From positions 17,670,001-17,734,000 of the forward strand of contig OX597815.1 in assembly GCA_951406725.2 (NCBI GenBank): a stretch of 64,000 nucleotides of DNA. The letters are read 5' to 3'. The translations under genes were made by a program, and so were the position numbers. A model generated the notes under the pieces. It had not been told where the DNA came from. It saw nothing but the letters and a program-made list of their open reading frames with translations, and searched no databases. Source of the DNA: Octopus vulgaris. Taxonomy: Eukaryota. Of this stretch, positions 22,025 to 62,924 are shown one piece after another (position 1 is the stretch's first letter; every line of letters begins with the position of its first letter).

Positions 22025-22081
<57 letters not shown>

Positions 22082-22227
22082 CTGGGGAGAGTCATTTTCT
22101 TTTTGTGCCTTATAATGCAACACACTCATCGGTAAAATTTCCACTTTTTCTGTGACATTAAAAGGCTCAAAAAGAAAATGACTCTTCCCCAGACAACAGA
22201 ATATTTTTCGTACTATAATAGTTCCCC

Positions 22228-30778: not shown

Positions 30779-30849
30779 TTAGTAAACATTCTGTTAACTG
30801 TTTTGATTGTTCGTAGTCTTTAAGGAAAATAAAAATCATCCCTTTATTC

Positions 30850-31049
30850 TTTTATCCTTTTACTTGTTTCAGTCATTTGACTGCGGCCATGCTGGAGCAC
30901 CACTTTTAGTCGAGCAAATCGCCCCCCAGGACTTATTCTTTGTATCGATCTCATTGGCCGAACCGCTAAGTTACGGGGGACGTAAACACACCAGCATCGG
31001 TTGTCAAGCGATGTTGGGGGGACAAACACAAACACATAAACACACACAT

Positions 31050-31102
<53 letters not shown>

Positions 31103-31463
31103 ATCCAAACAAGAAAGCACAAAAAAACACAACAACGCGAGGACGTGGAACAAATATAGTATTATTGGACGCTCAGGAAAGAAGGAGGGTTTAACGTTTC
31201 GAGCGGAGCTCTTCGTCGGAAACATAGGAGAAGGAAAGATCCAGAGAAGACAGAGGAAAAAAAATCGACAACGGTACACACGAGGTCACATTTTTGTATA
31301 TATATATACGACGGGCTTCTTTCAGTTTCCGTCTACCAAATCCACTCAGAAAGCTTTGGTTGGCCCGAGGCTATAGTAGAAGACACTTGCCCAAGGTGCC
31401 ACGCAGTGGGACTGAACCCGGAACCATGTGGTTGGTAAGCAAGCTACTTACCACACAGCCACT
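30850..31463 (-). mobile_element. SINE family A interrupted in its internal (TA)n by a hammerhead element (31098-31292)
   Basis: Tail at 30850-31060 and head at 31300-31463 are collinear with uninterrupted copies. Confidence 0.9.
31189..31223 (-). ncRNA. Minimal hammerhead-like motif, family 3
   Basis: GTTT-CCGACGA-A GAGC TCC GCTC-GAAA-CG-TT-AAAC with palindromic stem III (AACGTT). Confidence 0.6.
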
Positions 31464-31904
31464 CCATTCCTTTGATTTAGTTTTATTATTATTTCGTTTT
31501 TGTATCATTTGTGTCACACGTTATGCGAGTCGCCATCCCAGAGTCAAATTTTGATAGATTTTTGAGAACTTTTGCTTAAAAATTTTACATTAACATACTT
31601 CATGGATGTATCTCCTTTTTTACATGAAACTGCACACACACACACACAAATGCATTTGTTCCCAGGTTTACTCTGACCCGGAGTAGTAAGCACCTGCCAG
31701 GGTCCCAGCTGTTGGCTAATTAGTATCCTGACAACTGCGAGTGAACAACCCCTAGTTTTCGTTTTCAGAAAAAAAAAAAAAAAAGGTCGTCCCAATATTT
31801 GTTATGTCACTGGTGTTACAGCCGTTTGCGCTGAAAAGAGGGTCAAGTGCTGTGCAATGCGTTATCCACTCAAATTGACGCAGAGGAACTTCTTGGACTC
31901 TTGA

Positions 31905-32310
31905 TTCTATTATCCATCTTACAAACAATAACTCTGAGCACCTTTTCAAATTCCACCTGTCTAACACCCGTGGACATGTTTACAAAGTCAGAAAGCAGCA
32001 CAGCTCCCATGACTTTCGGAAACATTTTTTTCACGCTAAGAGTTGCTGAAGTATGGAACAAACTGCAAGGCATCAGTTGTTAGTTGTCGGAGCACTGCAT
32101 CCTTCAAAACTTCCATGCTTCCTGAGATTCGCCAACACTACACCTGATTTTTGCCCCTCCATACACACACAAGCATGTATCTGACTCATACACTGTTCAC
32201 TTTCCAGACATTTGTACATTACTGCATATGCTTTATACGCACTTTTGACAAGTTGTGGTGCACCTGAGCACTGTATACAATAATTTCATTATTATTATTA
32301 TTATTATTAT
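31905..32310 (+). mobile_element. CR1-like LINE 3' end with (ATT)n tail
   Basis: SNTRGHVYKVRKQHSSHDFRKHFFTLRVAEVWNKL...SFKT, a CR1-type C-terminus, followed by 3' UTR and an ATT repeat. Confidence 0.85.
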
Positions 32311-32657
32311 CAAGCGGTCTTGCTCGGTCGCATGTGTGAATATATTTGCATATATATGTGTGCGCACACATTTACATATATATGCACACACATCTGTGTG
32401 GTGTGTGTGCATGTACGAGAGAGAAGGAGAGAGAGGGAGAAAGCGAGCTACCAGTAAGTAACGGATGGACTGATTCAGCTTGCCTCCTGTTAATTAAAGA
32501 ATGGCAATCGTTGAACACACGAATTCGATATAGCCACTCCAAACTGATGCGGATATAATTTAGAACTAAACGAGCAAGTGTTAATTCACTGTTGCTGTCA
32601 ACAGGTAACACTGAAAACAGTCAAGTGTCGAAAATGTAGAACCAGTATCTCCTATAC

Positions 32658-32858
32658 CAGTGGTTTTCAACCAGGGTTCCGCCAGTACAGTCCAGGGGTT
32701 CCGCAAGAAGTTACAAAACTGCTAAAATCGGCAGTAATTTTTAATTCTCCTGTGCAGATATGTGTGCATAAAACTATTAAATTATTGCACAGGGGTTCCT
32801 CGAGCCAGTGGAATGTTTCCTTGGGGTTCCGCTCCAGTAAAAAGTTTGAAAAGCACTG
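32658..32858. mobile_element. hAT-type MITE
   Basis: TIR CAGTGGTTTTCAA / TTGAAAAGCACTG; perfect 8-bp TSD TCCTATAC at 32650-32657 and 32859-32866. Confidence 0.92.
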
Positions 32859-32935
32859 TCCTATACATTTAACAATATAAGAAATTTGGAAAAAATATCA
32901 CCCACGATGACTACAAAAAAAAAAAACAAAAAAGA

Positions 32936-33604
32936 CCCTTTAGTGTTTAAACCGGCCGTATCTGGCCCAAATATTCTAAATGTTTTATATTCAAACTGGT
33001 GATATCTAGCCTCTCACACCTAACCTACAATGTCATGCTAAAAATAAACAATCACATCACTGAAACCTCAAAGCTATAAGATAATGCATGATTAATTCAA
33101 AACAATTTGAGTGAAAAAGTATTATATTTAACACATGGCACAGGAGTGGCTGTGTGGTAAGTAGCTTGTTTACCAACCACACGGTTCCGGGTTCAGTCCC
33201 ACTGCGTGGCACCTTGGGCAAGTGTCTTCTACTATAGCCTCGGGCCGACCAAAGCCTTGTGAGTGGATTTGGTAGACGGAAACTGAAAGAAGCCCGTCGT
33301 ATATATGTATATATATGTGTATATATATATCTGTGTGTGTGTGTGTGCGTATATGTTTGTATGTCTGTGTTTGTCCCTCCCAACATCGCTTGACAACCGA
33401 TGCTGGTGTGTTTATGTCCCCGTTACTTAGCGGTTCGGCAAAAAGAGACCGATACAATAAGTACTGGGCTTATTACAAAACGAATAAGTCCCGGGGTCGA
33501 GTTGCTCGATTGACTAAAGGTGGTGCTCCAGCATGGCCGCAGTCAAATGACTGAAACAAGTAAAAGAATAGAAGAAAAAAAGAGAGTAATCTGAACACTA
33601 AAGA
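32936..33604. mobile_element. piggyBac-type MITE containing a SINE A insertion
   Basis: Termini CCCTTTAGTGTTT / GAACACTAAAGAG-TTAA; the left TTAA is not intact. Confidence 0.6.
33136..33572 (+). mobile_element. SINE family A, full length
   Basis: GGCACAGGAGTGGCTGTGTGGTAAG...GGTTCAGTCCC...TGACTGAAACAAGTAAAAGA. Confidence 0.92.
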
Positions 33605-34512
33605 GTTAAACAGAACAGGATTGGTTTGTACGTACACGCATGCGCCAGTGTAGACCACTCACACACAAGCCTCCAGCATCAATCTTCAGAAGTTGGGACA
33701 TCGACAAAAGCAGAAATAACTCAAACTAATTGGAAAATTAAAGTTTACAAGACAGTAATGAATTGTAAAAGGATGTAAAACATTCTATAAATGTAACTTC
33801 TGGTATGAAAAAATACACAAAATCCCACATGTACACACTATACAAACACATGTATATATGTACACGGTCAAACTATACAGATTCACATACGCAATGACAT
33901 GCATGCTACAAACATACATGCACATTACATACAAATTTTGTTTGTTGGGACCATAGATACTTGTGAACAGGAAGAATATTTCTAATGAAACCTTCATCAA
34001 ATGTAAACAACAAAACAAATCTGGTTTGTTGTTTGAGACCAAAAACAGAAATGTACTGTTACAGAGATGAGCTGACCTCTAAATGTGAACAACTCTTTCA
34101 AACGTAGTTGAGACAAAATATTATGGACTGGGTTTCCGAAAGAAATTTGGGAAATCGGAACAAAATTGCTTTGAGGTTATAAGTATTCTTAAAATTCACG
34201 GGGTCGGTGTGATTTCTTTTTTTCTAAAGATCGTCATGGATCCTTTCAAAGTTTCACAGCTCCAGACTAGTGTACAGATTGAACCCCCATCTTTTAAAGG
34301 TCCGAGATACAAACAAAACCTATGAAACTTACAGCTCCTCTACACAGATCATAAATTCACATGTCTACTTGTATTATTAGTGTCTTTGACTCGATTATTA
34401 AATGTCTAACTGGAGATCTGAAAATGCTCGTTTGTCAGGCTTTTAAAAGTGAACAGCTATCACGAACTTTGCAAATACAACCTATTGACCGAACAATAAA
34501 TATATGCAAAAC

Positions 34513-34632
34513 TTTTCTTATTTCTTTATTGCCCCACAAGGGGCTAAACATAGACGGGACAAACAAGGACAGACAAACGGATTAAGTCGATTACATCGAC
34601 TCCAGTGCGTAACCAGTACTTAATTTATCGAC
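34513..34632 (-). mobile_element. SINE family B 3' fragment
   Basis: GCCCCACAAGGGGCTAAAC...ATCGACCCCGAAAGGATGAAAGGC. Confidence 0.85.
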
Positions 34633-35302
34633 CCCGAAAGGATGAAAGGCAACTCTTCACAGTTGTTCATAGTCATAGGACCCAAGGAAGGTCCCATGAC
34701 TCAAAGAAGATCTTATGATTAGGTACCGACGGAATCTCGCCGCTTATAGTTCCTGTATCGGTACATTTGGCTTTATTACCATGTCTCAGCGGTATTCCTA
34801 AAATTCTAAAACTTATAAAGTAGAGAAAACAACCAGTTATCATAAACTTCGCGAATACAATCTGTTGCTGGAACAATAAAAATAAGTAAGATCTTTCTGA
34901 AATTCAACTTTTAATTATTCATTGTTGCTGTATAAATTTCGGTGATGGAGCTTTGTTTTTAATCCCTTCTATAAATGAAGAACTCAAATAGAAAAAAAAA
35001 AGCATTCACTGATTTTGACGGTTCATTAAGCATTAAGTACTAGCTTATAAGACACACTAATTTTAGTGGGCTCTTTCTTAAACTACGATTTGCCTGTGTG
35101 TATAACACTGATATTGTTCATTAGATATAGGGGTGTATTTTATAAAGTGAACTTTATAATCCGTCAGATATGGTGATTTCTGTTGAATGCTGCTGAAAGT
35201 TATAACTTTCTGTCGCTTCGTCCATTTGTCTGCTTGACAGTTGGTCTCTGCGTACGCGCACACATGCCCAAGCATAAGTACACTATAATGCGCTGAGAGA
35301 GA

Positions 35303-35333
<31 letters not shown>

Positions 35334-36099
35334 GGGGAAAGAGAGAGAGAGAGAGAAAGAGGGAAAGAGAGAGAGAGGGGGGGATAGAGAGAGAGAGAGG
35401 GAAAGAGAGAGAGATTGTGTGTGTGTGTGTGTGTGTGCAGTCAGAAACAGCTGTCCCCAAATGTACTTTTATACCAGAAAAAAAAAAAGATCCACATATT
35501 ACGTTAGTCCTCAGGAAACTTTTGATTGTTGAAATTATCTCCCTTTCTCTTTCGGAGTCGGTCGCAACTGGCACCAGATTTTCGTTTACTTTCTCTCAAA
35601 AGCGAAGATAATTTCAGTAAATCTAGAAGCTACCTTGCATGTTATTTAATATAGCGTCATTCCTCTTTGTAATCCAAATTCTTGCCACAGGCAAGTTATT
35701 CCTCTCAGCTCATGATAGTGCCCTTGTGCTTGGGCATGGCTGCACGCACGCAAGTCCCCACAAAACCGCATTGTCTCAATACTCCAAAAATCTGGAGCAG
35801 TTGTTATTGTGGGAGTCATGTCCCTTGCTTTCTGTTTTAGACCTGACATCTTAAAATTGTCTTAAACTTGCAAGAATAATCACAGTTCCCATGTTGTTTT
35901 TGTAAGTCTCAACTGTACATCATATGCATCACGCAGAACGCTATCTCAAGGTTCCTTCTACCTGGTGTTTACACACAAACACACGTGAGAGTGTGTGTGT
36001 ATAGAAGTAAACATTCGTGTAAAGATAAATATTTTGTTACTGTTTTTGACAGTAGATCCAACATGCTCAAAATAAACAGCTGCCATTGTTTATATACAC

Positions 36100-36397
36100 T
36101 CTACTCTATTACGTGTTTCATTGATTTGACAGCGGCCATGCTGGAGCACCTCATTAAAGGGTGGTAGTCGAACACATCGACCCCAGGACTTATTCTTTGT
36201 AAGCCTAATACTTATCCTATTGGTTCATTCGCAGAACCGCTAAGTTACGGGGACATAAACACACCAACATGGGTTGTCAAGCGATAGCGGGGCAAAAACA
36301 GACACACACACACACACATGCAAATAAATACATACACACACACACAAATAAATAGATACACACACACACACACAAATAAATACACACACACACACAC

Positions 36398-36443
<46 letters not shown>

Positions 36444-36555
36444 GACAAGCTTCCTCCAGTTTCCATCTTCCAAATCCACTCACAAGGCTTTGGTCGGCCC
36501 GATACTAAAATAGTAGACGCTGGCCCAAGGTGCCACGCAGTGGAACTAAATCCGG
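36100..36555 (-). mobile_element. SINE family A (diverged)
   Basis: GCGGCCATGCTGGAGCACC...CAAATCCACTCACAAGGCTTTGGTCGGCCCG. Confidence 0.88.
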
Positions 36556-37059
36556 AAAAGATAAATAGCCTGAGGACGCACTGGTGGATTTATGTATTAG
36601 GTATAGCCTCTATAAACTCTCCACCAGCGTAGAAACACGTGTAGCGTTGATTAAAATATCTTTTTTCCCCCACAGACTAATAACAGGTAAGTTATAAATT
36701 TCTTCAATTTTTTTTTTTCAAATAATTTTATTGTATTTTATAGCATGCTTATATTAATTTATTGGATATAACTTTCTTTGTAGTTCTGCAATATGGAAAA
36801 CGAGTTTTGGTCATCGAAAATAGAGTCTGACGAATGTAAATTCTGTCTATTTTCCAATTCCAGGCAGAAGGACATTTATCGGTAAGTAAAGATGGTACAC
36901 AGCTACTGAAGAGGCCAAAAAGCTTTGAAACATGGCCAGCTTTTCTCCCTTTCGAGTCAGCACACATAGTCATCAGAAGAATAGTTTACAATCGTGGTAA
37001 GCTTTAAAACTAACAGACATGTTTTACACACACACACACACATATGTGTGTGTATGTGT

Positions 37060-37365
37060 GAAAGCACATGGCTCAGCGGTCGTGATGTTGTGAGTTCCAC
37101 TCCCGGACCGTGTTCTTGAGTGAGACACTTTTTTTTCACATTGTTCCAGTTCACTCACGAGTAGAAATGAGTAGCAATCTCACTGGTGCCAAGCTGTATC
37201 AGCCCTTGCATTTCCCTTGGATAACATTGGTAGTATGGAGAGGGAAGACTGGTATGCATGGGTAACAGCTAGTCTTCCACAAACAACTTTGCCCGGACTT
37301 ATGCTTTGGACGGGGGACTTTCGAGGTACAATCCCGTGGTCATTCGTCATCAAAGGAGTCTACCT
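37060..37365 (+). mobile_element. Older tRNA-derived SINE
   Basis: TGGCTCAGCGG (A box), GAGTTCCACTCCC (B box), GTTCTTGAGTGAGACACTT core-like segment. Confidence 0.55.
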
Positions 37366-37367
37366 CG

Positions 37368-37451
<84 letters not shown>

Positions 37452-37483
37452 TATATATATATATGTATATGCATATATATTGA

Positions 37484-37799
37484 GAAATGGAGATAAGAAA
37501 GTTGATTGTTTCTTATTAATAAATTGGTCATCTTCACTGCTTACAGCTGTTTCAATTAATATTGAATAATTTAATTACAAATTTGTACATTAAAATTACA
37601 TTTATGTGACATGAGTATAATTTCATCAGAGGAAAAAAGATCTAGCTTTGGATGTTGTTATATGTGAGCTTATCAGTAGAGTAAATTCAACGTAAAAATT
37701 TGTAATTAAATTATTGAGTATTGATAGAAACAGCTGTAAGTTGTGACGATGACCAATTTGTTAATAATAAACAATTATTAACTTCCTTATCTCCATTTC
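37484..37799. mobile_element. (TA)n-adjacent inverted-repeat element with long-stem-II hammerhead motif (37540-37632, minus)
   Basis: Arms GAAATGGAGATAAG... / ...CTTATCTCCATTTC. Minus strand CTGATGA-AATTA...TAATT-GAAA-CAGCTG-TA-AG; a second GAAACAGCTGTAAG sits in the right arm. Confidence 0.65.
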
Positions 37800-37958
37800 C
37801 TTCTCTTTCTTTTAAATAGATATAAGCTATATGCTTTATATATACCAAGTGTTTTAAGGGAGTTTCATTCCCTCAAGATAGTAGATATTGAACCTGTATT
37901 TCCTTGGATGAAACCATCCCTTCACGAGGTTAACATATCATCTAATTAAATTTAATAC

Positions 37959-38031
<73 letters not shown>

Positions 38032-38286
38032 AGTAATAATAAAGGGTGAAATTAATTAATTTGGAATAATTATCAATTACACCAAGTAGATTTCGGCATG
38101 TAAAGCCCCATTCGAGGAAAATTTAAGTAATACTAAGTAATTAAGGGTTTAGCAACAATTGCCTCACCAACACCGAATTTAGAAATAGCAGTCAAAGAGA
38201 TATAGCTATTCCTTCTACTAAAAGGGGGATCTCAGTAAAGGGGGATCTCTATCTATCTATCGATAAACAGATACATATACATATAC

Positions 38287-38342
<56 letters not shown>

Positions 38343-38444
38343 GTTAATCCAAACAAGAAAACAAAAAGACAACAACGCAAGGATGTGGAACAAATAAAGT
38401 ATTATTGGACGCTCAGGAAAGAAGGGAAGAAGGATAATATGGAA

Positions 38445-39601
38445 AAATGCGAGCAAGAGAAATAATATTCTTGAGATTATAAACCTGGAAAAGTTCAGGA
38501 CAAGTTATTACATCTGGTAAAGTACAAAACAAGAAAAAATTTTATTTAAAATATTGCAGCTAAGGATATAATTTCAAATAAATATATTTAGATTTAGAAA
38601 ATATTAATTTTCATGAAAACTAAAAATTTTATTACAAGTTATTACTTCTATTTGTTATTACTTGTTACTTCTATTAAAAATTAAAAATAACGCAAAATAT
38701 ATTTTGCACTTTAAAAGAATTCATTGTTTTAATTATTAATTGATGATTCGAATTTTGAAAATAGGCCATAAAAAATAATAGTAGTACGTAATTAGTACGA
38801 TAAATAGATTAATATAAAAATTAGTTATATTGCTAACCAACCACATGGTTCCGAGTTCAGTCCCACTGCGTGGCATCTTGGGCAAGTGTCTTCTGCTATA
38901 GCCCCGGGCCGACCAATGCCTTGTGAGTGGATTTGGTAGACGGAAACTGAAAGAAGCCCGTCGTATATATGTGTATTTATATGTTTGTGTGTCTGTGTTT
39001 GTCTCTCTAGCATTGCTTTACAACTGATGCTGGTGTGTTTACGTCCCCGTTACTTAGCGGTTCGGCAAAAAGAGACCGATAGAATAAGTACTGGGCTTAC
39101 AAAGAATAAGTCCCGGGGTCGATTTGCTCGTCTAAAGGTGGTGCTCTAGCATGGCCGCAGTCAAATGACTGAAACAAGTAAAAGAGTAATTACAGTAAAT
39201 CTACCAGTAACAACAGATTCACTGTAAAATTTGCTTGAGTTATCGCCTAAGCTATTGCCAAGTCTTCACATTTTCAGTCTTGACCTAATGCCTATTTTTT
39301 ACATAATGAATTTGCCTACCATATATACTATGCTACTTTGCATTAAACTTCAGCTATATTGGTACTTCTGGCTCTCATTTTTTAAGTATTCTAGTGTGTC
39401 AATATTTTAACAAAATGATGGTACCGTTTTTAATTATATTGTTACTTTGTAAATTAAAATCAAATAATTTTTAATATTCAAATTTTATCCTTAACTGCAA
39501 TATTTTAAGTAAAAGTTTTCTTGTTCTGTACTTTACCAGATGTAATAAGTTGTCCTAAACTTTTCCAAGTTAAGAATATTATTGATCTTGCTCGCATTTT
39601 T
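38445..39601. repeat. Inverted ~130-bp arms (38445-38575 and 39481-39601) around a SINE
   Basis: AAAAATGCGAGCAAGA...TTATTACATCTGGTAAAGTACA matches the reverse complement of TGTACTTTACCAGATGTAATAA...TCTTGCTCGCATTTTT. Confidence 0.75.
38830..39188 (+). mobile_element. SINE family A
   Basis: Family consensus from the B box to the tail. Confidence 0.9.
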
Positions 39602-40856
39602 GCATATAATCCATGTTTTTTTCCAGGCTGTGCTAATTAATAATGTGTCAAATAGCGGTGTCATTGATAAATTTTTCCTTACTTCAATGATGCCGGTGAC
39701 GTATATTAAAAGTCCCCTTATAGAACTATCTTCATAAAAAAAAAAGTATAGAACTATACTATCACCCTCAAATTTGAGAAACAACACTCATAACTTTTTT
39801 CTTTTAAAACTTCATTGCATGAAATTCCTTGAATTGAGCTCTGTCATTTAAGCTTAATTAAAATATTTGTTTTTAAAATAAAAATGTTAATTATACTTAA
39901 ATTTAATTTTATGCCTTTCTTATATTACAAGTTTTTTTATACAAATTTTTCTTGCATGGGACAAAAACTATAAAATTCCTCATGCTTTCTTCCATCATTG
40001 AAAGCTAAGATAAACATATTTTGCTTTTAAAATAAAAATTTTTTTTTAAATTCTAAACATGATTGGTGGCGTTATTTACTCTCCTATAAAGTTACCTACA
40101 AATTTTGATGTAAACTTTTTCCTATTGGACCAAATCTCAATTTTTTTAATGCTAAAATGTAGCTCGGGACCAGTTCTCTTCAAAAATGTAAACAGTTTTC
40201 AATTTGGTTGGAAACTGAATTAGCAAAAAGCTCTGAAAGATGCTGCATGTGAGTAAATTGCGGCTTTATTCGATTACTGCTCAAGTTGAATGATATATTC
40301 CATTTCCAAGTACGTTATCTTTACCTTTTTGATGCGACTCGCTACAGTTTTCTTCCCCTATCCTTCTCTCATGCCCTTTTCTCCCCTCCCTCATTCACCG
40401 TTTTCAATCTCTCTCCCCTCTTCCTTCTTTTCTCTTTCTCTCTCTCTCTCGTCGCTCACACGTGGCCATCGTCCATCCTTCTTTTCCTCACGTGACCACC
40501 TTTCTTTTCCTGCAGAGACGTTCAAAAGACCAGACGTGTTTTTTTTTTCTCTCTCTCTCTGTTACCTATTCTCTTGTCAAAAGAATGTTTCTCACAGGTT
40601 TCCTTTCATGTGTCTACTGTCATGATCGCAACTTTGACCTGCCATAAATCCTAAATTTTATTTTAGAATTTATGGGAACAACTGTCTTTGAAGATGCATA
40701 TTGTCGTTGGCTGCTCGAAATGAGGAGTAGATAGACAGCCAACAACTGATGAAGAGTCCTTTTTCTGAGTTTACTTGTCCTGCTTTCCATTTGTTCTCGT
40801 TGTTTACGTATTTCATGTTATTTGCATGTTGGTGGTGTCCTGTACCCATATAAGTA

Positions 40857-40901
<45 letters not shown>

Positions 40902-40930
40902 TTATATACACATATATTATATACTATTTA

Positions 40931-40971
<41 letters not shown>

Positions 40972-41531
40972 CATATATATATATAATATTATTGTATATA
41001 TTCATTTATTACTTATTACTATTTACTATTATATACTATTTATTATATACTATTTACAATTTATTATTCTATATATATACATATATATATATTATTTACT
41101 ATTTATTTTATATACGTATATATATATATATATTTACATGCACACACCCATACATGTGTATATACATACATATCCGTATGTGCATGTGTACATAGATATA
41201 TTTATATACATACGCACAAACACATGTGTACATACATAAATACATACATTTATACGCAATGAACGCATGTATTTGGGGAAAGAGCCAATAATTAAAAGGC
41301 TACAATAGCGCCGTTATTATTCATACCGAGAAGTATGCCTCAATGTGAGAGAAGTCGCCTATGTACTTAATCTCTTTAAACTGTACATTCCATTCTATTG
41401 GAAGTTCAGCACCGACTTCTAAAAAGTGCGCCTGAAGATATTCAGGTATTATGATGTAACGAAGCTCCTGTATCTACCAAGCTGCTGAACGTTTACGGTA
41501 TACAAAAGAACTACGGTATACAAAAGAAACA

Positions 41532-41765
41532 AGGCGGCGAGCTGGCAGAAACGTTTGCACGCCGGGCGAAATGCGTAGCCGTATTTCGTCTGTCGTTACG
41601 CTTGTGAGTTCAAATTCCGCCGAGGTCGACTTTGCCTTTCATCCTTTCGGGGTCGATAAATTAAGTACCAGTTACGCACTGGGGTCGATGGAATCGACTT
41701 AATCCCTTTGTCTGTCCTTGTTTTTTCCCATCTATGTTTAGCCCCTTGTGGGTAATAAATAAATA
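41532..41765 (+). mobile_element. SINE family B, CpG-intact
   Basis: GGCGGCGAGCTGGCAGAAACG...GTCGACTTTGCCTTTCATCCTTTCGGGGTCGATAAATTAAGTACC. Confidence 0.92.
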
Positions 41766-42649
41766 GGTATACAAAAGAACTTACACGTCTCTTGGAAAGG
41801 GACAACGGAAAGAGCAATCGCTGGAGGTACATTACCGAATATATTAAAACAAATGCTGGCATAAAACAAACACTTTGCATGAGAAGAATGACAATGTAAT
41901 TTTGATAATCGATAATTTATTAACACGGCGTACAGGAGCGAACAAACAGGCTCAGAAATCACTGACTTAGACTTTAGTCCATTAGTGAAAATTATTACCG
42001 TATGCAATGCATACCTTTGAGATAATGTGTGTATATATATATCAATATATATATATACATATACACACACACATATATATATGTATACACACATGTATAT
42101 ATATACATATATGCACACATATATATGTATATACACATATTTATATACACATTTATGTACACATATGTATACATATATATATATACATATATATATATAC
42201 ATATATATATACAAATATACATACACAAATAAGTACACATGCATGAACACATATGTATACATATGTATATACACACATGTACACATACATATATGTAGAC
42301 ATATATATATATATACATACATAGATGAATATACAGACATATATATATACATACTTATATACATATATACTTATATAGGTATATATATATATACATATAT
42401 ATACTTAAACATATATTTACACATATATAAATATATATATATACACATATGCATATATATATGCATATGTATATATACATACATATACACATATACATAT
42501 ATATTTATATATATATACACATATACATATATATTTATACATATATACACATACATACATATATATATATATATAAATATATATACATGCACATACATAT
42601 ACAAACATATATATATATATATATAAGTTATATAACTTAGAATAACTTA

Positions 42650-42975
42650 GAAAGGTTTTTGGCCAGTATTGGCCCAGGCCATGTCTAACTTAATAGCACC
42701 ACCTGGCGAAGTCTTTCAGTTCAGGATTTGGGATGTAGCGTTCACGGCGTCGTTGGAGTGAATACAATTTCAGCTTCTCTAGTCTACCCCAGTAGTCAAG
42801 GTCTGACATGCCATCTATCTTTTTTGTGATTGACCTTTGGGGGAGCTTCAATTCTCATAATATTTTGTTTTGTGTAGGGAGACCACAGTGGACAGCAGTA
42901 TTCAAGGTGGGGTCGGGCAAAAGTGGAGAAGAGAAGGATAATAGCGTCCACGCCATTGATGACCTTCTGGAGCTT
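42650..42975 (-). mobile_element. CR1/Jockey-group LINE fragment
   Basis: [34 protein letters not shown] motif. Confidence 0.8.
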
Positions 42976-43072
42976 ATCATTTATATGGTGTCAGTAATAT
43001 ATATATATATAACACATATATGTACATATACATATATACATATAAGTAAATATATATATATATACATATATT

Positions 43073-43136
<64 letters not shown>

Positions 43137-43474
43137 TAGGTATACATATACATATAGATACATATACATATATGTTGAGTACCATATAAATATAGGTACA
43201 ATGCAGTTATAAAGATAAATTAAATAGATACTATTAGCAATCCAATTTATTTATATCATATTATATGATACACTATGAATATCATATAACATAATATCAT
43301 ATAACATAAACAATTATTAAAAAACGTAAAAGGCCGGGAAGTTGTTTCGACTTATAAATATTTTTTTTCTGATAAACATACATAAGATTACCTGTATGTA
43401 TAAATTACTTCAGGATCATAGTGTCATAGTGTAAAGATAGGCGAAATTCCGGCTGCATTGTAAAATATATTTAC

Positions 43475-43520
<46 letters not shown>

Positions 43521-43567
43521 CATATATATATATACATATACATATATATATATATATGTACACACAC

Positions 43568-43599
<32 letters not shown>

Positions 43600-43691
43600 A
43601 TATATATGTACACACATATGTATATATATGTATACACACACATATATATAGAGAGAGACATACTATATGTCTATAGATTTGTGTGTGTATA

Positions 43692-43731
<40 letters not shown>

Positions 43732-43899
43732 TATATACGTATATACATATATGTATATGTATATATATGTGTGTGTGTGTATATATAAATATATATATAT
43801 GTGTATATATATATATGTATAAACATATGTATACATGTATATATATATATATATGTGTGTGTATATATGTATATACATAAACCCGATAGAATTACCTAA

Positions 43900-44985
43900 A
43901 TCCTTTTAAAGTCAAGTTTTGTGGTATTATGGTCCATTCAAGTAATGAGTTCTTGTTGAGTCAGTTGTATTCAGGCACGTGTGGCTTGTCTGGTATTCCT
44001 TGTAGAAATCTGTCCAGACTCTGTTTGAAGGTGATGGGATCCTTTTCCTCTTTGATCAGTTTTGGAACAATGTTAAACAGGGTAGGGCCTGTTGAGGTAA
44101 AGAAATTGTGCCGCAGTGTTCCTATATGTTGTGATCCTGAAATGGGTAGGGGACGTGTGGCCCGTGGTCCCAACCTTGGGTGAACGTGGAAGCTAATGTT
44201 CAGGTCGTTTGGGCAATGCTGGCGGTATATTCTCCACATCGTGCAAATGATGTACCGCTCGTGGCGGTGCTGGAGAGAGTAGAGTTTCAAGGCTTTAAGG
44301 CGGTCCCAAAAATCGAGATCAGTCATGCCCTTAATTCGCTTAGTGAATGCCCTCTGGAGTGATTATCGAGATGTTTTGTTTTGTATGGAGAAACCACAGG
44401 TTGCATCATTATTTGAGGTGTGGCCGTACAAAGGAGGAGAAATGTGAAATGGTGACACCTTGTTTTCACGACAGGGAGGTTCTTAAGATCCAGGAGCTCA
44501 TCCTACGAGCTATATCGACCTTATTGTTGATGTGGGCACTCCAACCGAGATAGTTCTCAACAATTAATCCTAGGTCTCTGATATTATTAGATGCTGTGAG
44601 CGGTTCCCCTGAAGGAAGAGAATACAGCTGTTTTAGTATAGTCTTCCTTCCAAAATGTATCAGCTCAAATTTTCACTTTGCAGTGTTTTACGACGCTGGA
44701 AAGGTCGTTTATGTAGATTATAAAGAAGAGCGAGCTCAAGACAGTCCCCTGAGGGACACCACTGGTGACTTTTGCTGGGCTTGAGTACACTCCATCGACA
44801 AAATGATGTGTTCTATTCGCCAGGGAATATTCAATCGGGTGTAGATGTTTTCCACAGATTTCAACATATGCCAATTTTGGGAGTAAGATATTATGGTCAA
44901 CACTGTCGAACGCTTTACTGAAGCGATATATGACATCAGATTTCGAACTTGTTCCTGAGGCTTTAAGTATTTCCTCAATGTGGTG
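43900..44985 (-). mobile_element. CR1/Jockey-group LINE ORF2 remnant (RT core plus C-terminus)
   Basis: [31 protein letters not shown], then LDFWDRLKALKLYSLQHRHERY...GPTLFNIVP...FKQSLDRFL; internal deletion and frameshifts. Confidence 0.92.
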
Positions 44986-45038
44986 CATATATATGCATAC
45001 ACATATATGTATATATATACATACATACACACACACAC

Positions 45039-45074
<36 letters not shown>

Positions 45075-45481
45075 GCAATATATATAAATGCATATATATG
45101 TATACACACATGTATATATATACGTATATATACATACATATATATGCATATATACGTATACATATGTATATAAATGTATGTATACACATATCTGTATATA
45201 CATATATATGTATACACATATGTATATATATATGCATATAGACGTACACACATATATGTATTATATATATATATATACACATATATATGTATACAGATAT
45301 ATGCACATATATATATGTATACAGATATATGCATATATATATATATATGTATACACATGTATATATATATATATATATATATATACATACATATATATAT
45401 ATGCATATATATATATATATATACATACATATATGTATGCATATATATATATATGTATACATATATATGTATACACATACG

Positions 45482-45513
<32 letters not shown>

Positions 45514-46692
45514 TATAACCATATATGTGTATACATATATGCATATATATGTATATACATGTATATATATGCATATGTGTGTGTTTGTTTGTGGCGTTGT
45601 TAGCTAGCTCCTTCTACATAGTTTTATTGATTTTCATAAAACTTGACACGTGAGTAGAAATCATGTCTGGAAATCCCGTGGCATACTTAGATTGTTGAAA
45701 AATCGATAATAGGTCCCTGGAAGGGATCTTTATATCTAACTAATATTTTCTTAAAAAACACCCAAGGGAAATAACCCATACCACCTGCACAATATTTTGT
45801 TTTAAACACTCAAGGGAAATAACCCATTGCAATTGCATGTTTATTCCAATTCAATAAGTTTGTCCCAGTACAATGAACTCATACTTTGAATGCTTAAAAT
45901 TTTTTAAAAAATGAAACCTAGCTTCCATACCACATTGACTTGCGACAACCTATTTCAATTATACCTATTTTAGAAATAATAATATTTACTGCTTACTTAC
46001 AGTTCATACAACATTTTGATGAACGCCTATTCTAATTCATTATCTAAACTGTTATATACATATTGCTGTAATTAATTTACACATTGCATTAATACACACT
46101 TTTGCAACATCTCCAAATAACTAAATTCTGGCAATGCATACAGGGTTTTCAATTCAATTTCATTATACTTCGCATACCCATAACTCCGATAATTCTGCAT
46201 TTTTCCAGTTAGAATTTTTCGATGATAGAAGATAATTTTTTGATTCCAGAACTTATTGAATAAGTGTGTTCCAATACAATGATCTCATACTTTGAATGAT
46301 TAAAATTATTAAAAGATGAAAAACTTCCATACCACATACAGTTATTTACTTTGAATTGATATTATCTCATATGTAATTAACCTGTTATTATGTAAAATGC
46401 CTCACGATTTTCCTCTACATACTTTATTAGTATTTCCTTCTGAGTTCTCTGGGAACACATTAAAGCCCTTTCCAGAGCTACTTATTTGAGTTCTTACTAT
46501 CAGTTAACTAATTTCATGTTATTACTGACTTTGTAATTTGGGTATCTATAACTTATTGGGAATTTCTAAAAATAAGATCCTGTGTAACACAGGTATTCTC
46601 TGTAAATGCACAAAAACCGTCTTAGGTCTACATACTTTGTATTGTTGTTATTGGATTAGCGAAACGATTATGATTTTATTTCCTTCTCCTAT

Positions 46693-46727
46693 ATTTCCGA
46701 CGAAGAGATCCGCTCGAAACGTTAAAT
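46693..46727 (+). ncRNA. Minimal hammerhead-like motif, family 3 (element ~46680-46820 ending in (TA)n)
   Basis: ATTT-CCGACGA-A GAG ATCCG CTC-GAAA-CG-TT-AAAT; the tail is shared with 31098-31188 and 38341-38425. Confidence 0.6.
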
Positions 46728-46816
46728 CCTCCTTCTTTCCTGAGCGTCCAATAATACTATATTTGTTTCACGTCCTCGCGTTGTTGTGTTTTTTTTGTGC
46801 TTTCTTGTTAGGATTA

Positions 46817-46860
<44 letters not shown>

Positions 46861-46942
46861 CATGTATACATATGTATACAAACATATAGACACATATATA
46901 TACATAGATGTATATACACATATACATACGTATATATATATG

Positions 46943-46976
<34 letters not shown>

Positions 46977-47083
46977 CATATACACACATATATATATATA
47001 CATATATTCATATAAATATATCCATACATACATACATACATATATATATACATAAATATGTGTGTGTATATATATATATATGT

Positions 47084-47130
<47 letters not shown>

Positions 47131-47659
47131 CAACAATGACCTAAGAGAAAGAAACTCAGTTGGCCAGTGGTATGTAGTTGACCACACAAACTCTTAATTC
47201 ATCAAATCTTTATCCGTCACTAGATGATGTGCTATAATTACCAAATAGCCGCACTTGACACAGAAATGGCATATATTCTCTCATTTCAAGAAGAGAGTGG
47301 GCGGGAGAGAAAGAGGAGTAGATAATATTGTAGAATCAACAATAGATCAGTGCTCAATTATCTTCAGTGTGTTTAATGAAATCAAATTCCTTTCATGATG
47401 TTGGCAGTATGCGATCTAGACAGAAAGATAACGTATGTCATGATATTTAGAATAACCTGATGTTGTTAAAGGCGTTCACATGAGTTATTGTACGATAATA
47501 TCTATTGTAGACATTAGTAAAACAGCGTGGTATACACTCTGATGCAGAGATAGGATTTATAACGACAGAGAGCGGCAGAGTGGTGACAAAAATAATCCGA
47601 AGTTTTAAAACCAGATATAGACAGCATTTCTTTTAACGGGAATTTTTTGTAACATACAT

Positions 47660-47882
47660 TACTCTTTTACTTGTTTCAGTCATTTGACTGCGGCCATGTT
47701 GGAGCACCGCCTTTAGTCGAGCAAATCGACCCCGGGACTTATTCTTTGTAAGCCCAGTACAGTACTTATTCTATCGGTCTCTTTTGCCGAACCGCTAAGT
47801 GACGGGGACGTAAACACACCAGCATCGGTTGTCAAGCAATGCTAGGGGAACAAACACAGACACACAAACATCTACACACACA

Positions 47883-47930
<48 letters not shown>

Positions 47931-48083
47931 CGACGGGCTTCTTTCAGTTTCCGTCTACCAAATCCACTCACAAGGCATTGGTCGGCCCGGGGCTATAGCA
48001 GAAGACACTTGCCCAAGATGCCACGCAGTGGACTGAACCCGGAACCATGTGGTTGGTAAGCAAGCTACTTACCACACAGCCAC
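47660..48083 (-). mobile_element. SINE family A
   Basis: Full family consensus; head-to-head with 48314-48710. Confidence 0.92.
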
Positions 48084-48313
48084 TCCAACGAAAACGAAAT
48101 CTTAGTACGAGGAGCCATAGCAGAAATATTTGTAATGATGATCATGATGATGATGTGATCATAATCACGACCATGATGGGAATTCTGGTGGTTGAAGATA
48201 ATGCCAAAGAGAATGATCTGACAAAGAATATGCGAGTTATTGTTGTGGTTAGCATATGAAAGGAAATATTTCGCACAGTTAAATATTTCGGTTTGATATT
48301 ACTGATATGTAGA

Positions 48314-48710
48314 TAGGAGTGGCTGTGTGGTAAGTAGCTTGCTTACCAACCACATAGTTCCGGGTTCAGTACCACTGCGTGACACCTTGGGCAAGTGTCT
48401 TCTGCTATAGCCTCGGGCCGACCAAAGCCTTGTGAGTGGATTTGGTAGACGGAAATTGAAAGAAGCCCGTCGTATATATGTATATATATGTATGTGTGTG
48501 TATATGTTTGTGTGTCTGTTCCCCCCCCCCCAACATCGCTTGACAACCGATGCTGGTGTGTTTACGTTCCGTAACTTAGCAGTTCGGCAAAAGAGACCGA
48601 TAGAATAAGTACTAGGCTTACAAAGAATAAGTCCTGGGGTCGATTTGCTCGACTAAAGGCGGTGCTCCAGCATGGCCACAGTCAAATGACTGAAACAAGT
48701 AAAAGAGTAA
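48314..48710 (+). mobile_element. SINE family A
   Basis: Full family consensus. Confidence 0.92.
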
Positions 48711-49472
48711 ACCGCAAATTAACAAACTTATTTAGTTATACGAGATTAGAGACCGCTGTTTGCTTACACCTCAGTACAATGTGTCTGAAAGCCACATGGG
48801 CTGAATGTACAAGACGTTAAACAACGAATTGAAAGGTCGGCATTTGAAAACGTTGAGTTTACGTAGCATGTGACTATGTCACTAAAACTGAATGATCCAG
48901 TTCATTTAAACAGTAGATACAGCATCAAGGTACAAGATCACAAATGTAATTTTCACAAGCATTGTGACATTCAACAATGCTCCACTAACGCGCAGTACTG
49001 CGTTCAACTTGTTTCATAGGTATATAAGTTCGCAGAATGTACTTGACTAGGCTGATTTGCCCCGTTGAGCACACTGCGTGCAGAGAAAACTCTCAGTGGC
49101 CTTCCAACAATGCAATGGTTATTAATATAGATTATATAGCAGCAGTACTAAATAACGGACTACACAATATCGTGTGTTAGCATAATCAATTAATCAGGTA
49201 CATATATAATCAAAGTTCATATTCACTGAATCATGAGAGCTACAACAAAGACCAACCAATGCATACTTTACATGTAATAACTTACTCCGAAAATAAAGAC
49301 TTGCAAATGTATGTTTACAATATAGTATTGGCAGTCACCAGGTAACATTATAAGAGCTGTAAAAAATACATGGTTGCAGAACAGTGATGATAAATCTTTG
49401 CTTATTACTGTTGTAATAGTAGTGGTAAACGAAAGTGAAAGTAGAAGAGTAATACATTCTAGACATACATTC

Positions 49473-49526
<54 letters not shown>

Positions 49527-49597
49527 ATATATATATGTATATATGTATATATATATATATATGTATATATGTATATATATATATATATGTATATATG

Positions 49598-49632
<35 letters not shown>

Positions 49633-49737
49633 GTATGTATATATGTATATATGTATATATATATGTATATATATATGTATATATGTATATATATATGTAT
49701 ATATATATGTATATATGTATATATATATGTATATATG

Positions 49738-49770
<33 letters not shown>

Positions 49771-49775
49771 GTATG

Positions 49776-49864
<89 letters not shown>

Positions 49865-50052
49865 ATATATATGTTTGTATATATATATGTGTGTATGTAT
49901 ATATGTGTGTATGTATATATGTATGTATATATATATGTATGTATATATATATGTATGTATATATATATGTATGTATATATATATGTATGTATATATATAT
50001 GTATGTATATATATATGTAATATATGTATATATATATATGTGTATGTATATA

Positions 50053-50107
<55 letters not shown>

Positions 50108-50116
50108 ATATATATA
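49473..50116. repeat. Degenerate (TA)n/(TATG)n array (similar arrays at 21070-21470, 42030-42625, 43477-43878, 44986-45575, 46821-47127)
   Basis: Low-complexity dinucleotide mosaic. Confidence 0.97.
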
Positions 50117-50194
50117 GCAGTTGCCATGATAGATTGTTAGCCACTACACACATGTTTTCTCTCCTTCTTTCTCTCCTTGTTTTTTTCTGAGTCC

Positions 50195-50230
50195 CTTTCT
50201 GTAGAAGAGCGTAGGCTCGAAACGTAAAAG
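50195..50230 (+). ncRNA. Minimal hammerhead-like motif, family 4 (CUGUAGA core)
   Basis: CTTT-CTGTAGA-A GAGC GTAG GCTC-GAAA-CG-TA-AAAG, then a ~90-nt tail to (TA)n; the tail recurs at 62812-62875. Confidence 0.6.
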
Positions 50231-50318
50231 ACTTTTTCTATTCCTGAGCGTTATACTAATACATCTGTTTGTTTTGTACATCACCTGTCTTCGTCTTTTG
50301 TTTGTTTTCATAAACTCT

Positions 50319-50364
<46 letters not shown>

Positions 50365-51106: not shown

Positions 51107-51500
51107 CATATATATATATAAAGCTGGAGTTGTCTGTGTATGGCAGGTTTGGTAGCCTTCAACTAACACTATCTCTTCCGAGACCCTGCAGCACAAGTTG
51201 ACCAAAATTGAGAGTATGATAGAAGAAGGCTTGCTCTTCCTTTCCGTAGAAGAAAAAAATTCTAATCAGACCATGTTAACACCAACAATTATTAACATCA
51301 AAAAGGTGCTTTTTTTTCTATGAAAAATCACTATTTTCTACGATTTTTTTGACTGCTGTGTCGGTATTTTTCGGTGTATTTCAACCAGAAAAATGTTCAC
51401 TTCAAGAGAATAACAAGCTACATAATGCAAAATTTTTACTTTTCAACAATTCCAATTCTAAAGGGTCGAAACAAACCCGAGCAACGTCGGGCGATACTGC
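51107..51500 (+). mobile_element. Non-autonomous Helitron (terminal TAG missing)
   Basis: TC-(AT)n-AAAGCTGGAG start; 3' CCCGAGCAACGTCGGGCGATACTGC; same family as 55478-55876. Confidence 0.8.
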
Positions 51501-55477: not shown

Positions 55478-55876
55478 CTAGCAGTATAGACCAGCATTGC
55501 TCGGGCTTGTTTGCTTTTCGACCCTTTAGAATTGGAAGTTTTGAAAAGTAAAAATGGTGCATAATGTAGCTTGTTATTCTCTTTAAGTGAACATTTTCTG
55601 GTTGAAATACACCGAAAAATGGCGACACAGCAGTAAAAAAATCGTAAAAAGTAGGGATTTTCATAGAAAAAAAGCACCTTTTTGATGTAAATAATTTTTG
55701 GTGTTAACATGGTCCAATTTGAATTTTTTCTTCTACGGAAGGAAGAGCAAGCCTTCGTCTATCATACTCTCAATTTTGGTCAACTTGCACCACAGGGTCT
55801 CAGAGGAGATAGTATTAGTTGAAGGCTACCAAATCTGCCATACACAGACAACTTCAGCTTTATATATATAGAGAGA
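55478..55876 (-). mobile_element. Non-autonomous Helitron
   Basis: Minus strand A|TCTCTCTATATATATAAAGCTG ... CCCGAGCAATGCTGGTCTATACTGCTAG|T. Confidence 0.85.
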
Positions 55877-56168
55877 TTAGTAAAAAAAAAATTACTTCTT
55901 TCTAAATTATAAAGGAGTGTAGATACGATCAAGCGAATCTATTGAGTTTAATTGCAACTTAGCTTTTCAACAACCTTTGACAACGGCGTGTATTCAAATC
56001 TGTTATTGACCTAAGTAACAACAAAGTACAGTCGATTTCGCTTACTTTCGTACCCTATAATTGCATATTTCGCTAATTTGCATAACTTTTCAAAACACCG
56101 AACCTTTTAGCATTATAATGTAACACACTCACCGGTAAAATTTCCACTTATTTCTTATTTTTATTTTC

Positions 56169-56205
56169 CTAAAATTTTCATTACGTCTTTCAACCTTTTC
56201 AATAG
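56169..56205 (-). ncRNA. Hammerhead-like motif with U3-A8 covariant core, family 5
   Basis: CTA-TTGAAAA-G GTTG AAAGACG TAAT-GAAA-AT-TT-TAG with palindromic AAAATTTT stem III. Confidence 0.5.
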
Positions 56206-57379
56206 TCTTGACTCTTTTAGCATTAGCTCTCCGGAAAAATCAACCGATGAAAGTGTTCGCACAAATAAAGTCAACTGTGGCTAATTGTACCCTGTATTCT
56301 TCAAGTTGTAGTTTTAAATTGAAAGATCTCCTAAATTTAGATATTTACTTGATTTGATATGACACGGGATGCTTCAGTATTCATAATGAATTAGAATGAA
56401 AGCAACCAGTATTGCACTTTTATATATGAAAGACGATAAAACGGCTTATTGTATTTAAGTACCATTTTTATGAGTCAAAGACTGATGGAGCTCAGACGTC
56501 GGTGTATATATATCGTATTTACATTGCATGATAAAAATATTCTTTAATAGATATATATTTTCATCATAGATAAAATTTGTAAAATTGTAGTTTTTAATCA
56601 AGAAGTGGACGGACGCCATTTTGTTGCTACTGTTATCAGTAACATTCGCTTAGGATTGATCCAATAAAACCTTTCTTAACCTTCATGATTCTAGTTATTA
56701 TAAGTGAGTAATAGAAAATGTTTAGAAGCCACTGACGGGTTTTTCAGGAAGCCTGAATCTAGATAAACTTTGATAATCGAAGAATATCAAAGGGAGCTAC
56801 AAAACCTAGTAAGAAGTCAAACGATTGCGTTGCCAATACGTATCATTAAAAAAATGGTTTGAACTAAGCAAATCATAGTAAATTATGTGTACATAAAACA
56901 TACAATAAATATATAAAAAAATTTAATTCTTGTTTAATTACACAGCGCAATCATTTATAATACAGCCACAATATTTTACTACAGACATTTATTGCTTTTT
57001 GAGTGATTTCGGATAATTGTATAAGAATGTTAATCATCGAAGATATGCAATTAAGCGGACTCAACTGTGTATAATTCGACAAGTTACTATTTGCGCTAAA
57101 TATAAAACTATAAAAACTTATTGAACAATTTCTTCTACCCCAAAAGTTTGTCTCTTTGGGGATGATAGTTGGCTAACAAAACGCCCCAGATAATAAGTGT
57201 TTTCCTTACACATACGCATCCGTACACACAGCATCTTGTCATAAGATCGTAAGAGTGAAATATGATACTGTTGGAATTGTCAACAACTTTACTTTAAATA
57301 TTTCACCTTTAGGGTGTTTGCTATTTAGACTTGAAGATTTTCTTATCCTAAACAATAAACTAAACAACGTGTGGGTGCG

Positions 57380-62207: not shown

Positions 62208-62871
62208 ATGGAATGTAGCTACTTCTAAAACATTTCGAGGAAGTTATATCTTCGACAAAGGGTGTCGAGAACGATATGGTGGACCGGAATGTGAAAAGCA
62301 CAACTTCCCAAGACGAGGATTGCACAAATAATCATACTAAAACCTGGCACTGATACTTTGGTTCCATCGTTAAATTACATTCACATGTTTATGGCATATT
62401 AGATGCTATACGTAAAGAACAGCATCTTCTTGATGTTGGAAAGTTAGTCGATGAAGCGATGCACTCGTTATGCCAAAGAATATAAATGGTATTAGTTCCT
62501 TAGAAAGAATTCAAGTTGTATTGAACTATGTAAATAGAGATTTTGAGCAACATTTGAGGTATTACGTATCTAATCAAGAATATAAATGAAATTCTTGATT
62601 TAGTGAGTATTACTTTTTCTCATAATGACATTTATATATATGTATGTATATATTGCTGTATTTGGGGCTGGTCATGTTGCCAGTTTAGCCAATGAAAACA
62701 CACGCACTGTAAATTTGGTGTTCACTTGGATTCAGCTTTATTTCATATTAATTGTATTTCGGCCAGAGTTCATTCGTCACACTTCCTTGCCTTCTTATAT
62801 ATATATACACACACATCTGTTTGTTTTGTACACCACCTGTCTTCGTCTTTTTTTTTTTTTTCGTAAACTCT

Positions 62872-62924
<53 letters not shown>

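What the first reader, a model, noticed from the sequence alone, without database searches (positions are those of the whole stretch)
31189..50230. Compensatory stem-I changes and variant cores (CCGACGA, CUGUAGA) across families 3 and 4
Stem I is GTTT/AAAC at 31189, ATTT/AAAT at 46693 and CTTT/AAAG at 50195, giving three different Watson-Crick pairs at the same position. Stem II GAG(C)/(G)CTC is kept while its loop varies, and an extra A follows the core in all three. The cores deviate at U4>C or A6>U. The covariation suggests selection on RNA structure despite the non-canonical cores, but it rests on only three copies.
Basis: partly seen in the sequence, partly recalled or inferred. Interest (0 to 1): 0.7.

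Follow-up and report, generated by a model that had tools for sequence, protein, structure and literature searches.

The report
Variant hammerheads in Penelope-type repeat ends
Three small hammerhead-shaped RNA motifs sit in high-copy repeats that are likely leftover ends of Penelope-like jumping genes; in one repeat family the odd C4 core letter is family-wide, but the claimed compensatory stem change disappears because most copies carry a mismatch there, so the motif is likely a weak or vestigial ribozyme.

Summary
The three motifs are real minimal type-I hammerhead folds (one on the minus strand). They match the published Penelope-like element (PLE) minimal hammerhead except for one core letter each. 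The covariation claim fails. Copies 31189 and 46693 are 96% identical members of one family. In 22,604 contigs from four public runs (three organism labels) laid on copy 46693, the 3' partner of the disputed stem-I pair is C in 74-89% of depth, while the 5' partner shows no change from A at the 2% level. Most copies therefore have an A·C mismatch, and G-C and A-U are two separate one-sided departures. Simple models make a hidden G majority unlikely but do not exclude it. The same data show C4 is family-wide, not copy decay. U6 (50195, single copy) is untested. Copy 46693 also has a private change that breaks the fourth stem-II pair. U4C is already known from a viroid and lowers cleavage. Most likely these are short PLE ends inserted in (TA)n whose master carried a weak or vestigial ribozyme. 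No PLE ORF is nearby and cleavage is not shown.

The parts
31099..31296 (-). Family-3 short element (198 nt) between (TA)n tracts, inside the central microsatellite of a SINE-like repeat (30843-31465)
31189..31223 (-). Minimal type-I hammerhead, core CCGACGA (C4), extra A, stem II 4 bp, GUU site (predicted cut after 31193); stem-I fourth pair G-C, where G is a minority state
   Evidence: family state
46679..46818 (+). Family-3 element, 5'-truncated at 46679, followed by (TA)n; 95.7% identical to copy A over 140 nt
   Evidence: loose ends at 46679 resemble the upstream part of copy A
46693..46727 (+). Minimal hammerhead, core CCGACGA; private A at 46708 breaks the fourth stem-II pair; T at 46727 is a 10-25% minority state
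50117..50321 (+). Family-4 short element (205 nt) with (TA)n on both sides; 75% identical to family 3 over 76 nt
50189..50234 (+). Minimal hammerhead, core CTGTAGA (U6 at 50202), extra A, stem II 4 bp with GUAG loop, GUA site; stem I can extend past a 2-nt bulge to 8 pairs
   Evidence: -8.2/-8.5 vs -7.4 kcal/mol
46737..46747 (+). 11-nt block TTCCTGAGCGT, identical in both families (also 31169-31179 minus, 50241-50251 plus); can pair with the stem-II 3' strand and GAA
38340..38425 (-). Family-3 3' part without the hammerhead
62804..62875 (+). Family-4 3' end without the hammerhead

Best explanation
The three motifs are minimal type-I hammerhead folds inside short, high-copy repeats that sit in (TA)n tracts and are likely the ends (pLTR relics or non-autonomous copies) of Penelope-like retroelements; the CCGACGA family likely amplified from a master that already carried C4 and a stem I of only three U-A pairs, so its ribozyme is predicted to be weak or vestigial. 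Shown: the fold, the family-wide C4, the majority A·C mismatch at the fourth stem-I position, and solitary placement in (TA)n. Inferred: origin from PLE ends, copying by a PLE reverse transcriptase, and low cleavage. If cut at all, the RNA would be cut as a dimer through the ACGU palindrome or with help from the element's protein. The three different Watson-Crick pairs arise from two one-sided departures from the family's mismatch, plus one older difference between families.
For: Layout equals the PLE min-HHR consensus (extra base before stem II, G10.1-C11.1, palindromic loopless stem III, 3-5 bp stem I): PMC4209133 text and Fig. S3. Several PLE clades prefer (TA)n (PMC8557442); 9818, 4718, 7955 and 113 contigs laid; 46727 reads C in 87.8/84.1/74.1/89.0% of depth; no row at 46693 or 46698 although both are covered. 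Depth ratio 46720/46708 observed 0.60-1.07; models give 0.25-1.04 for a majority A and 1.36-2.22 for a hidden majority G. U4C considerably lowers activity in vitro (PMC3088659). All single changes in the CUGA turn gave low activity in a type-III hammerhead (PMC9901934). Ribozyme-dead mutants did not impair insertion by the Anolis PLE in vitro (PMC11167929). Naiad PLEs proliferate without canonical hammerheads. Monomer folds are not stable (z -0.50, 0.35, 1.18); stem-I pair probability is at most 0.06.
Against: No PLE ORF lies near any copy. The only Pfam RT hit among 13 frames (44668-45000) looks LINE-type (recalled motif) and is unrelated, so the PLE link rests on architecture. No change reached 2% anywhere in 46679-46707, including two CpG sites in the core, while CpG sites downstream show up to 12.6%; a true 5% variant in the core should have been seen at about 3-4%. 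This could mean conservation of the core. Both minority states restore the pair, and a G minority could be under-counted about tenfold if the laying step needs long exact words. In run X6 the binned depth profile fits a hidden G better than A under such words. The U4C viroid stays infectious. Family 4 has a longer stem I and its U6 is untested.
Confidence: 0.55

Rival explanations
1. The variant cores are tuned-down but working ribozymes kept by selection in the master lineages. They would cleave slowly as dimers or when bound by the PLE protein, and the conserved downstream block may switch the fold off in free RNA.
For: G5, G8, G12, C3-G8, A9, A13, A14 and A15.1-U16.1 are intact in all three copies and in the family majority. 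No variant reached 2% in 46679-46707. U4C works in vivo in a viroid and A6C cleaves with Mn2+ (PMC7151607). The Anolis PLE hammerhead cleaves only with its protein. The ACGU self-duplex is feasible (-5.5 and -3.7 kcal/mol). A competing helix is predicted at P 0.20/0.94/0.19.
Against: Majority stem I is three U-A pairs closed by A·C. All copies seen are solitary. Even canonical-core min-HHRs cleave poorly. Genomic copies evolve neutrally, so homogeneity may only reflect the master. The predicted dimer MFE structures are not the double-hammerhead fold.
Confidence: 0.28
2. One reading: stem I truly covaries (G-C majority, A-U minority, C-G in the sister family), and the laying step hid the G copies.
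For: All three window copies pair at that position. With exact words of 15 or more and 31-nt contigs only, a majority G would be invisible, and run X6's profile fits that model better.
Against: With words of 13 or less, G would show at 71-88%; with mixed contig lengths and words of 15-18, at 24-53%. The depth ratio test rejects a hidden majority G in 4 of 4 runs. Profiles of X3, X5 and X1 fit A better at words of 15-18.
Confidence: 0.1
3. The repeats are not PLE-derived, and the hammerhead shape is a chance or fossil feature of a SINE-like or unknown repeat.
For: No Rfam hammerhead match (none among the 150 of 227 rows shown); no PLE ORF nearby.
Against: 0 of 20 shuffles give the strict layout. 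Four features outside the core match the PLE min-HHR consensus. The motif is the best-kept part between two 75%-identical families.
Confidence: 0.07

Closest known systems
Minimal hammerheads (min-HHR) of metazoan Penelope-like elements (Cervera & De la Pena 2014, PMC4209133)
   Same: Type I, extra base between A9 and G10.1, G10.1-C11.1, GAAA followed by a loopless palindrome, NUH site, short stem I, U-rich 5' flank, large dispersed families of mostly single motifs
   Different: Core is CCGACGA or CUGUAGA. None of the 56 rows of Fig. S3 has C4 or U6, but that search required the canonical or U3-A8 core. No linked ORF was found here.
Natural hammerhead core variants U4C (viroid; Ambros & Flores 1998, as cited in PMC3088659) and A6C (phage Bcep176; PMC3088659, PMC7151607)
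   Same: Single change at position 4 or 6 with the rest of the core intact
   Different: Those ribozymes have full stems; here the change is in a minimal, dimer-type fold. A6U, rather than A6C, was not found in the searches.
Non-LTR retrozymes of animals (PMC7229834; bioRxiv 10.64898/2026.07.22.740005)
   Same: Short non-coding repeats of about 200 nt with a type-I hammerhead, proposed to depend on PLEs
   Different: Retrozymes are tandem repeats, mostly with canonical hammerheads; these copies are solitary, minimal and have a variant core
Hydra-clade PLE Hydra-1_Obim and Naiads of Octopus (PMC8557442, Files S1-S2)
   Same: (TA)n insertion preference; 3' hammerhead in Hydra elements
   Different: Different sequence (0 matches to the motifs searched); Hydra hammerheads have a canonical core and a longer stem III

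Membership tests
Hammerhead ribozyme (type I) | Core C3 U4 G5 A6 N7 G8 A9 | tested here: not met
   One change in each copy: C4 (31218, 46698; family-wide) or U6 (50202)
Hammerhead ribozyme (type I) | G12 A13 A14, A15.1-U16.1, NUH site, C3-G8 pair | tested here: met
   All three copies; triplets GUU, GUU, GUA
Hammerhead ribozyme (type I) | Three-way junction with stems I and II | tested here: inconclusive
   Pairs can be drawn (95.8% of 24 cells), but the fold is not the predicted ground state; the family majority has only 3 U-A pairs in stem I
Hammerhead ribozyme (type I) | Match to an Rfam hammerhead model | tested here: not met
   None among all matches to E 10 in 31099-31290 and 50110-50325
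Hammerhead ribozyme (type I) | Self-cleavage | not testable with these tools
   Only assembled contigs were available; no assay
PLE minimal hammerhead (min-HHR) | Extra base between A9 and G10.1; G10.1-C11.1; palindromic 15.2-16.2 without loop 3 | tested here: met
   against PMC4209133
PLE minimal hammerhead (min-HHR) | Large dispersed genomic families | tested here: met
   Family 3: 9818, 4718, 7955 and 113 contigs laid in 4 of 4 runs; 3 copies of family 3 and 2 of family 4 in the window, counting partial ones
PLE minimal hammerhead (min-HHR) | Families rich in compensatory changes | tested here: not met
   For the disputed stem-I pair only one side varies; the other pairs show no two-sided change in the listed rows
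PLE minimal hammerhead (min-HHR) | Lies in a pLTR next to an RT + GIY-YIG ORF in at least some copies | tested here: inconclusive
   No such ORF in the window; whole genome not held
Non-LTR retrozyme | Tandem units each carrying a complete type-I hammerhead | tested here: not met
   All three copies are solitary; no such array
Non-LTR retrozyme | Expressed as circular RNA | not testable with these tools
   Contigs only

The most novel reading that the evidence does not exclude
Two very abundant sister families of Penelope-type elements each fixed a different 'forbidden' hammerhead core change (U4C, and A6U if it proves family-wide), yet still cleave: as protein-gated or Mn2+-dependent dimer ribozymes, held off in free RNA by a conserved downstream strand. 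Core-strict searches would have missed this whole class of animal ribozymes.
Probability: 0.12. Interest if true: 0.6.

Novelty: new variant of a known kind. Interest (0 to 1): 0.28.

Why it matters
Whether PLE hammerheads must cleave for the element to move is open. A family that reached very high copy number in at least three organism labels with a C4 core and a three-pair stem I is a natural test: if it is dead, cleavage is dispensable; if it cleaves with the element's protein, the core rules are looser in that setting. It also shows that core-strict descriptors undercount such motifs, and that covariation read from three repeat copies can mislead. The effect on the wider field is small.

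Tried and rejected
Rfam: the window scan showed only microsatellite-driven miRNA hits in the 150 of 227 rows listed; no hammerhead in two focused scans. Whole genome not held. Viral contigs: 0 matches for 3 patterns. Metagenomes: 0, then 13 matches; prokaryote genomes: 5 matches. All 18 lack the hammerhead core upstream and are GC-rich chance hits. Plasmids: no match. No RNA holder listed; run X1 is RNA only by guess and is not used as evidence of expression. No pile of molecule ends was listed, but contigs cannot show ends. Motif searches in supplements of PMC8557442, PMC13282606, PMC9115989 (files 5-8 not searched) and PMC8967140 gave 0 matches. Full-text motif search gave 20 unrelated papers. 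Lunse et al. 2017 (about 150,000 PLE hammerhead variants; number recalled) is not held and may already list C4/U6 cores. Tandem retrozyme reading rejected. Predicted homodimer MFEs did not give the double-hammerhead fold; this is weak either way. Earlier findings: none by sequence or place.
Full report
1. Observation. The window is AT-rich, microsatellite-rich animal-type DNA. Its repeats resemble octopus SINEs; that label is recalled and comes from no call. The three motifs are present. Copy A is on the minus strand (core from 31219, stem I 31223-31220 with 31192-31189). Copy B has its core from 46697, copy C from 50199. Each has a four-base stem-I match, a seven-base core with one change (C4, C4, U6), an extra A, a GAG/CTC stem II, GAAA, a loopless ACGT palindrome and a GUH site. 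A relaxed descriptor (at most one core mismatch) found exactly these three in the window. Twenty shuffles (2-mers shuffled in 500-nt blocks) gave 0.2 hits per window, and none with the strict layout. The shape is not chance.

2. Context. Copies A and B are one family (95.7% over 140 nt); copy C is a 75% relative over 76 nt. A (31099-31296) and C (50117-50321) are about 200-nt elements with (TA)n on both sides; B is cut at 46679 and followed by (TA)n. Partial copies without the motif lie at 38340-38425 and 62804-62875. None is tandem. No PLE ORF was seen: 1 of 13 frames scanned hit Pfam RVT_1 (44668-45000; LINE-like by a recalled motif), and a six-frame motif look found nothing near the copies. 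Rfam has no hammerhead match here.

3. Covariation test. On the three rows the score is not above shuffles (72 of 500), and two rows are near-identical kin. The genome is not held and collection scans gave nothing real, so I used public runs. Of 24 listed I laid 4 (X3 and X1 organism A, X5 organism B, X6 organism C; all assembled contigs) on 46640-46815 at 80% likeness and 2% share. Contigs laid: 9818 (X3), 4718 (X5), 7955 (X6), 113 (X1). At 46727, the 3' partner, C holds 87.8, 84.1, 74.1 and 89.0% of depth. At 46693, the 5' partner, no other letter is listed, though the place is covered. True covariation needs G there at about the same share as C. The majority is therefore an A·C mismatch. 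Copy B's A-U is a 10-25% minority, and copy A's G-C is below 2% as seen. At 46708, C holds 98.0-99.9%, so copy B's broken fourth stem-II pair is private.

4. Could the tool hide G? No row at all appears for 46679-46707, so I modelled word filters on integer positions. With words of 13 or less a majority G would show at 71-88%. With words of 15-18 and mixed contig lengths it would show at 24-53%. With 31-nt contigs only it would be invisible; with words of 19-21 and mixed lengths it would show at 1-7%. In those cases depth decides. The ratio 46720/46708 is 0.60, 0.88, 1.07 and 0.78; models give 0.25-1.04 for majority A and 1.36-2.22 for hidden G. Against my reading: the binned profile of X6 fits hidden G better at words of 15 or more, at words of 19-21 all models fit badly, and a 5% G minority could read as 0.5-0.7%. 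The models are crude and the tool's filter is unknown to me. I put majority A·C at about 0.85-0.9.

5. Core variants. No change from C at 46698 reached 2% in 4 of 4 runs. A majority U4 would have been visible under nearly every model and a 5% minority at about 3-4%. So C4 was in the master before amplification and is shared by three organism labels; canonical-core relatives beyond 80% likeness would not have been laid. U6 rests on one copy and is untested. That copy has the better stem I (8 pairs with a 2-nt bulge).

6. Mechanism. Shown: fold, family-wide C4, majority three-pair stem I, solitary insertion in (TA)n. From print: PLE min-HHRs have this layout, occur mostly as single relics and cleave poorly even as dimers (PMC4209133: main text parts 1-2 of 4, supplement parts 1-2 of 3). 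U4C lowers activity but supports viroid infection, and A6C is slow (PMC3088659: passages and section 8); A6C prefers Mn2+ (PMC7151607: part 1 of 4). Single changes in the CUGA turn gave low activity (PMC9901934: passages). The Anolis PLE ribozyme needs its protein and is dispensable for insertion in vitro (PMC11167929: passages). Naiads spread without canonical hammerheads, and Naiad, Neptune and Hydra PLEs favour microsatellites (PMC8557442: passages, supplement searches and part 2 of 59). PLEs cover 6.83% of the O. vulgaris genome (PMC13282606: part 1 of 3 and supplement search). Inferred: these are PLE ends copied by a PLE enzyme, with a weak or vestigial ribozyme (0.55). Rival: slow, dimer- or protein-dependent cleavage still under selection (0.28). 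In its favour, the catalytic guanines are intact, the 5' half of the motif shows no variant at 2% despite two CpG sites, and both minority states restore the pair. An 11-nt block downstream is identical in both families and can pair with stem II and GAA (P 0.20, 0.94, 0.19); I cannot tell a switch from coincidence.

7. Comparison and novelty. It is built like a PLE min-HHR and likely derives from one. It fails the canonical core test, and the ORF link and cleavage are unshown, so I file it as a variant resembling that family, not a proven ribozyme. It is not a tandem retrozyme (bioRxiv 10.64898/2026.07.22.740005: parts 1-2 of 5, supplements closed; PMC7229834: passages). None of the 56 rows in Fig. 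S3 of PMC4209133, nor the rows shown from File S2 of PMC8557442, has C4 or U6, but those searches asked for near-canonical cores. Searches found no description of these families or of a natural A6U hammerhead. Lunse et al. 2017 is not held and was seen only as cited in a review (PMC6765202: passages); it could already cover them. Passages of PMC6962438, PMC8490949 and PMC11014351, and supplement searches of PMC9115989 (files 5-8 unseen) and PMC8967140, added nothing specific. Unchecked AI notes from other genomes report C4 cores in phages and in a Euglena repeat; they are leads only.

8. Verdict. Real motif, known kind, headline covariation not supported, one modest new fact (family-wide C4). 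New variant of a known kind; interest 0.28.

Noticed in passing
window 733-1014 and 62869-63266: A (TA)n-flanked repeat forming a near-perfect hairpin (inverted copy). It carries both canonical hammerhead core halves (CTGAAGA ... GAAAC) but no clean stems under my descriptor; possibly another PLE end.
   Followed up: partly
window 46737-46747, 31169-31179 (-), 50241-50251: An 11-nt block identical in both families can pair with the stem-II 3' strand and GAA, competing with the ribozyme fold.
   Followed up: partly
window 46679-46707: No variant reached 2% in four runs, including two CpG sites in the core, whereas 26 variant rows lie in 46708-46784: real homogeneity or a filter effect.
   Followed up: partly
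window 46730-46790: In run X3 depth 3' of the hammerhead is about 2.8 times that on it, which suggests many copies lacking the motif, like the one at 38340-38425; depth is not a copy number.
   Followed up: no
window 30843-31465: A SINE-like repeat of about 430 nt with a central microsatellite (about 9 copies in the window) is interrupted by family-3 copy A.
   Followed up: no
window 44668-45000 (-): LINE-type reverse transcriptase fragment (Pfam RVT_1, E 6.8e-08) broken off by a long TA-rich microsatellite.
   Followed up: no
window 51111-51500 and 55481-55870: A 390-nt repeat pair (89% identical) containing a TTTCCGTAGAAG stretch that resembles the 5' half of both variant cores, but without stem II or GAAAC in register.
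   Followed up: no
window 12383-12616, 19418-19604, 22077-22204, 56105-56213: Another (TA)n-associated repeat with inverted, 5'-truncated arrangements typical of PLE ends; no hammerhead found by the descriptor.
   Followed up: no
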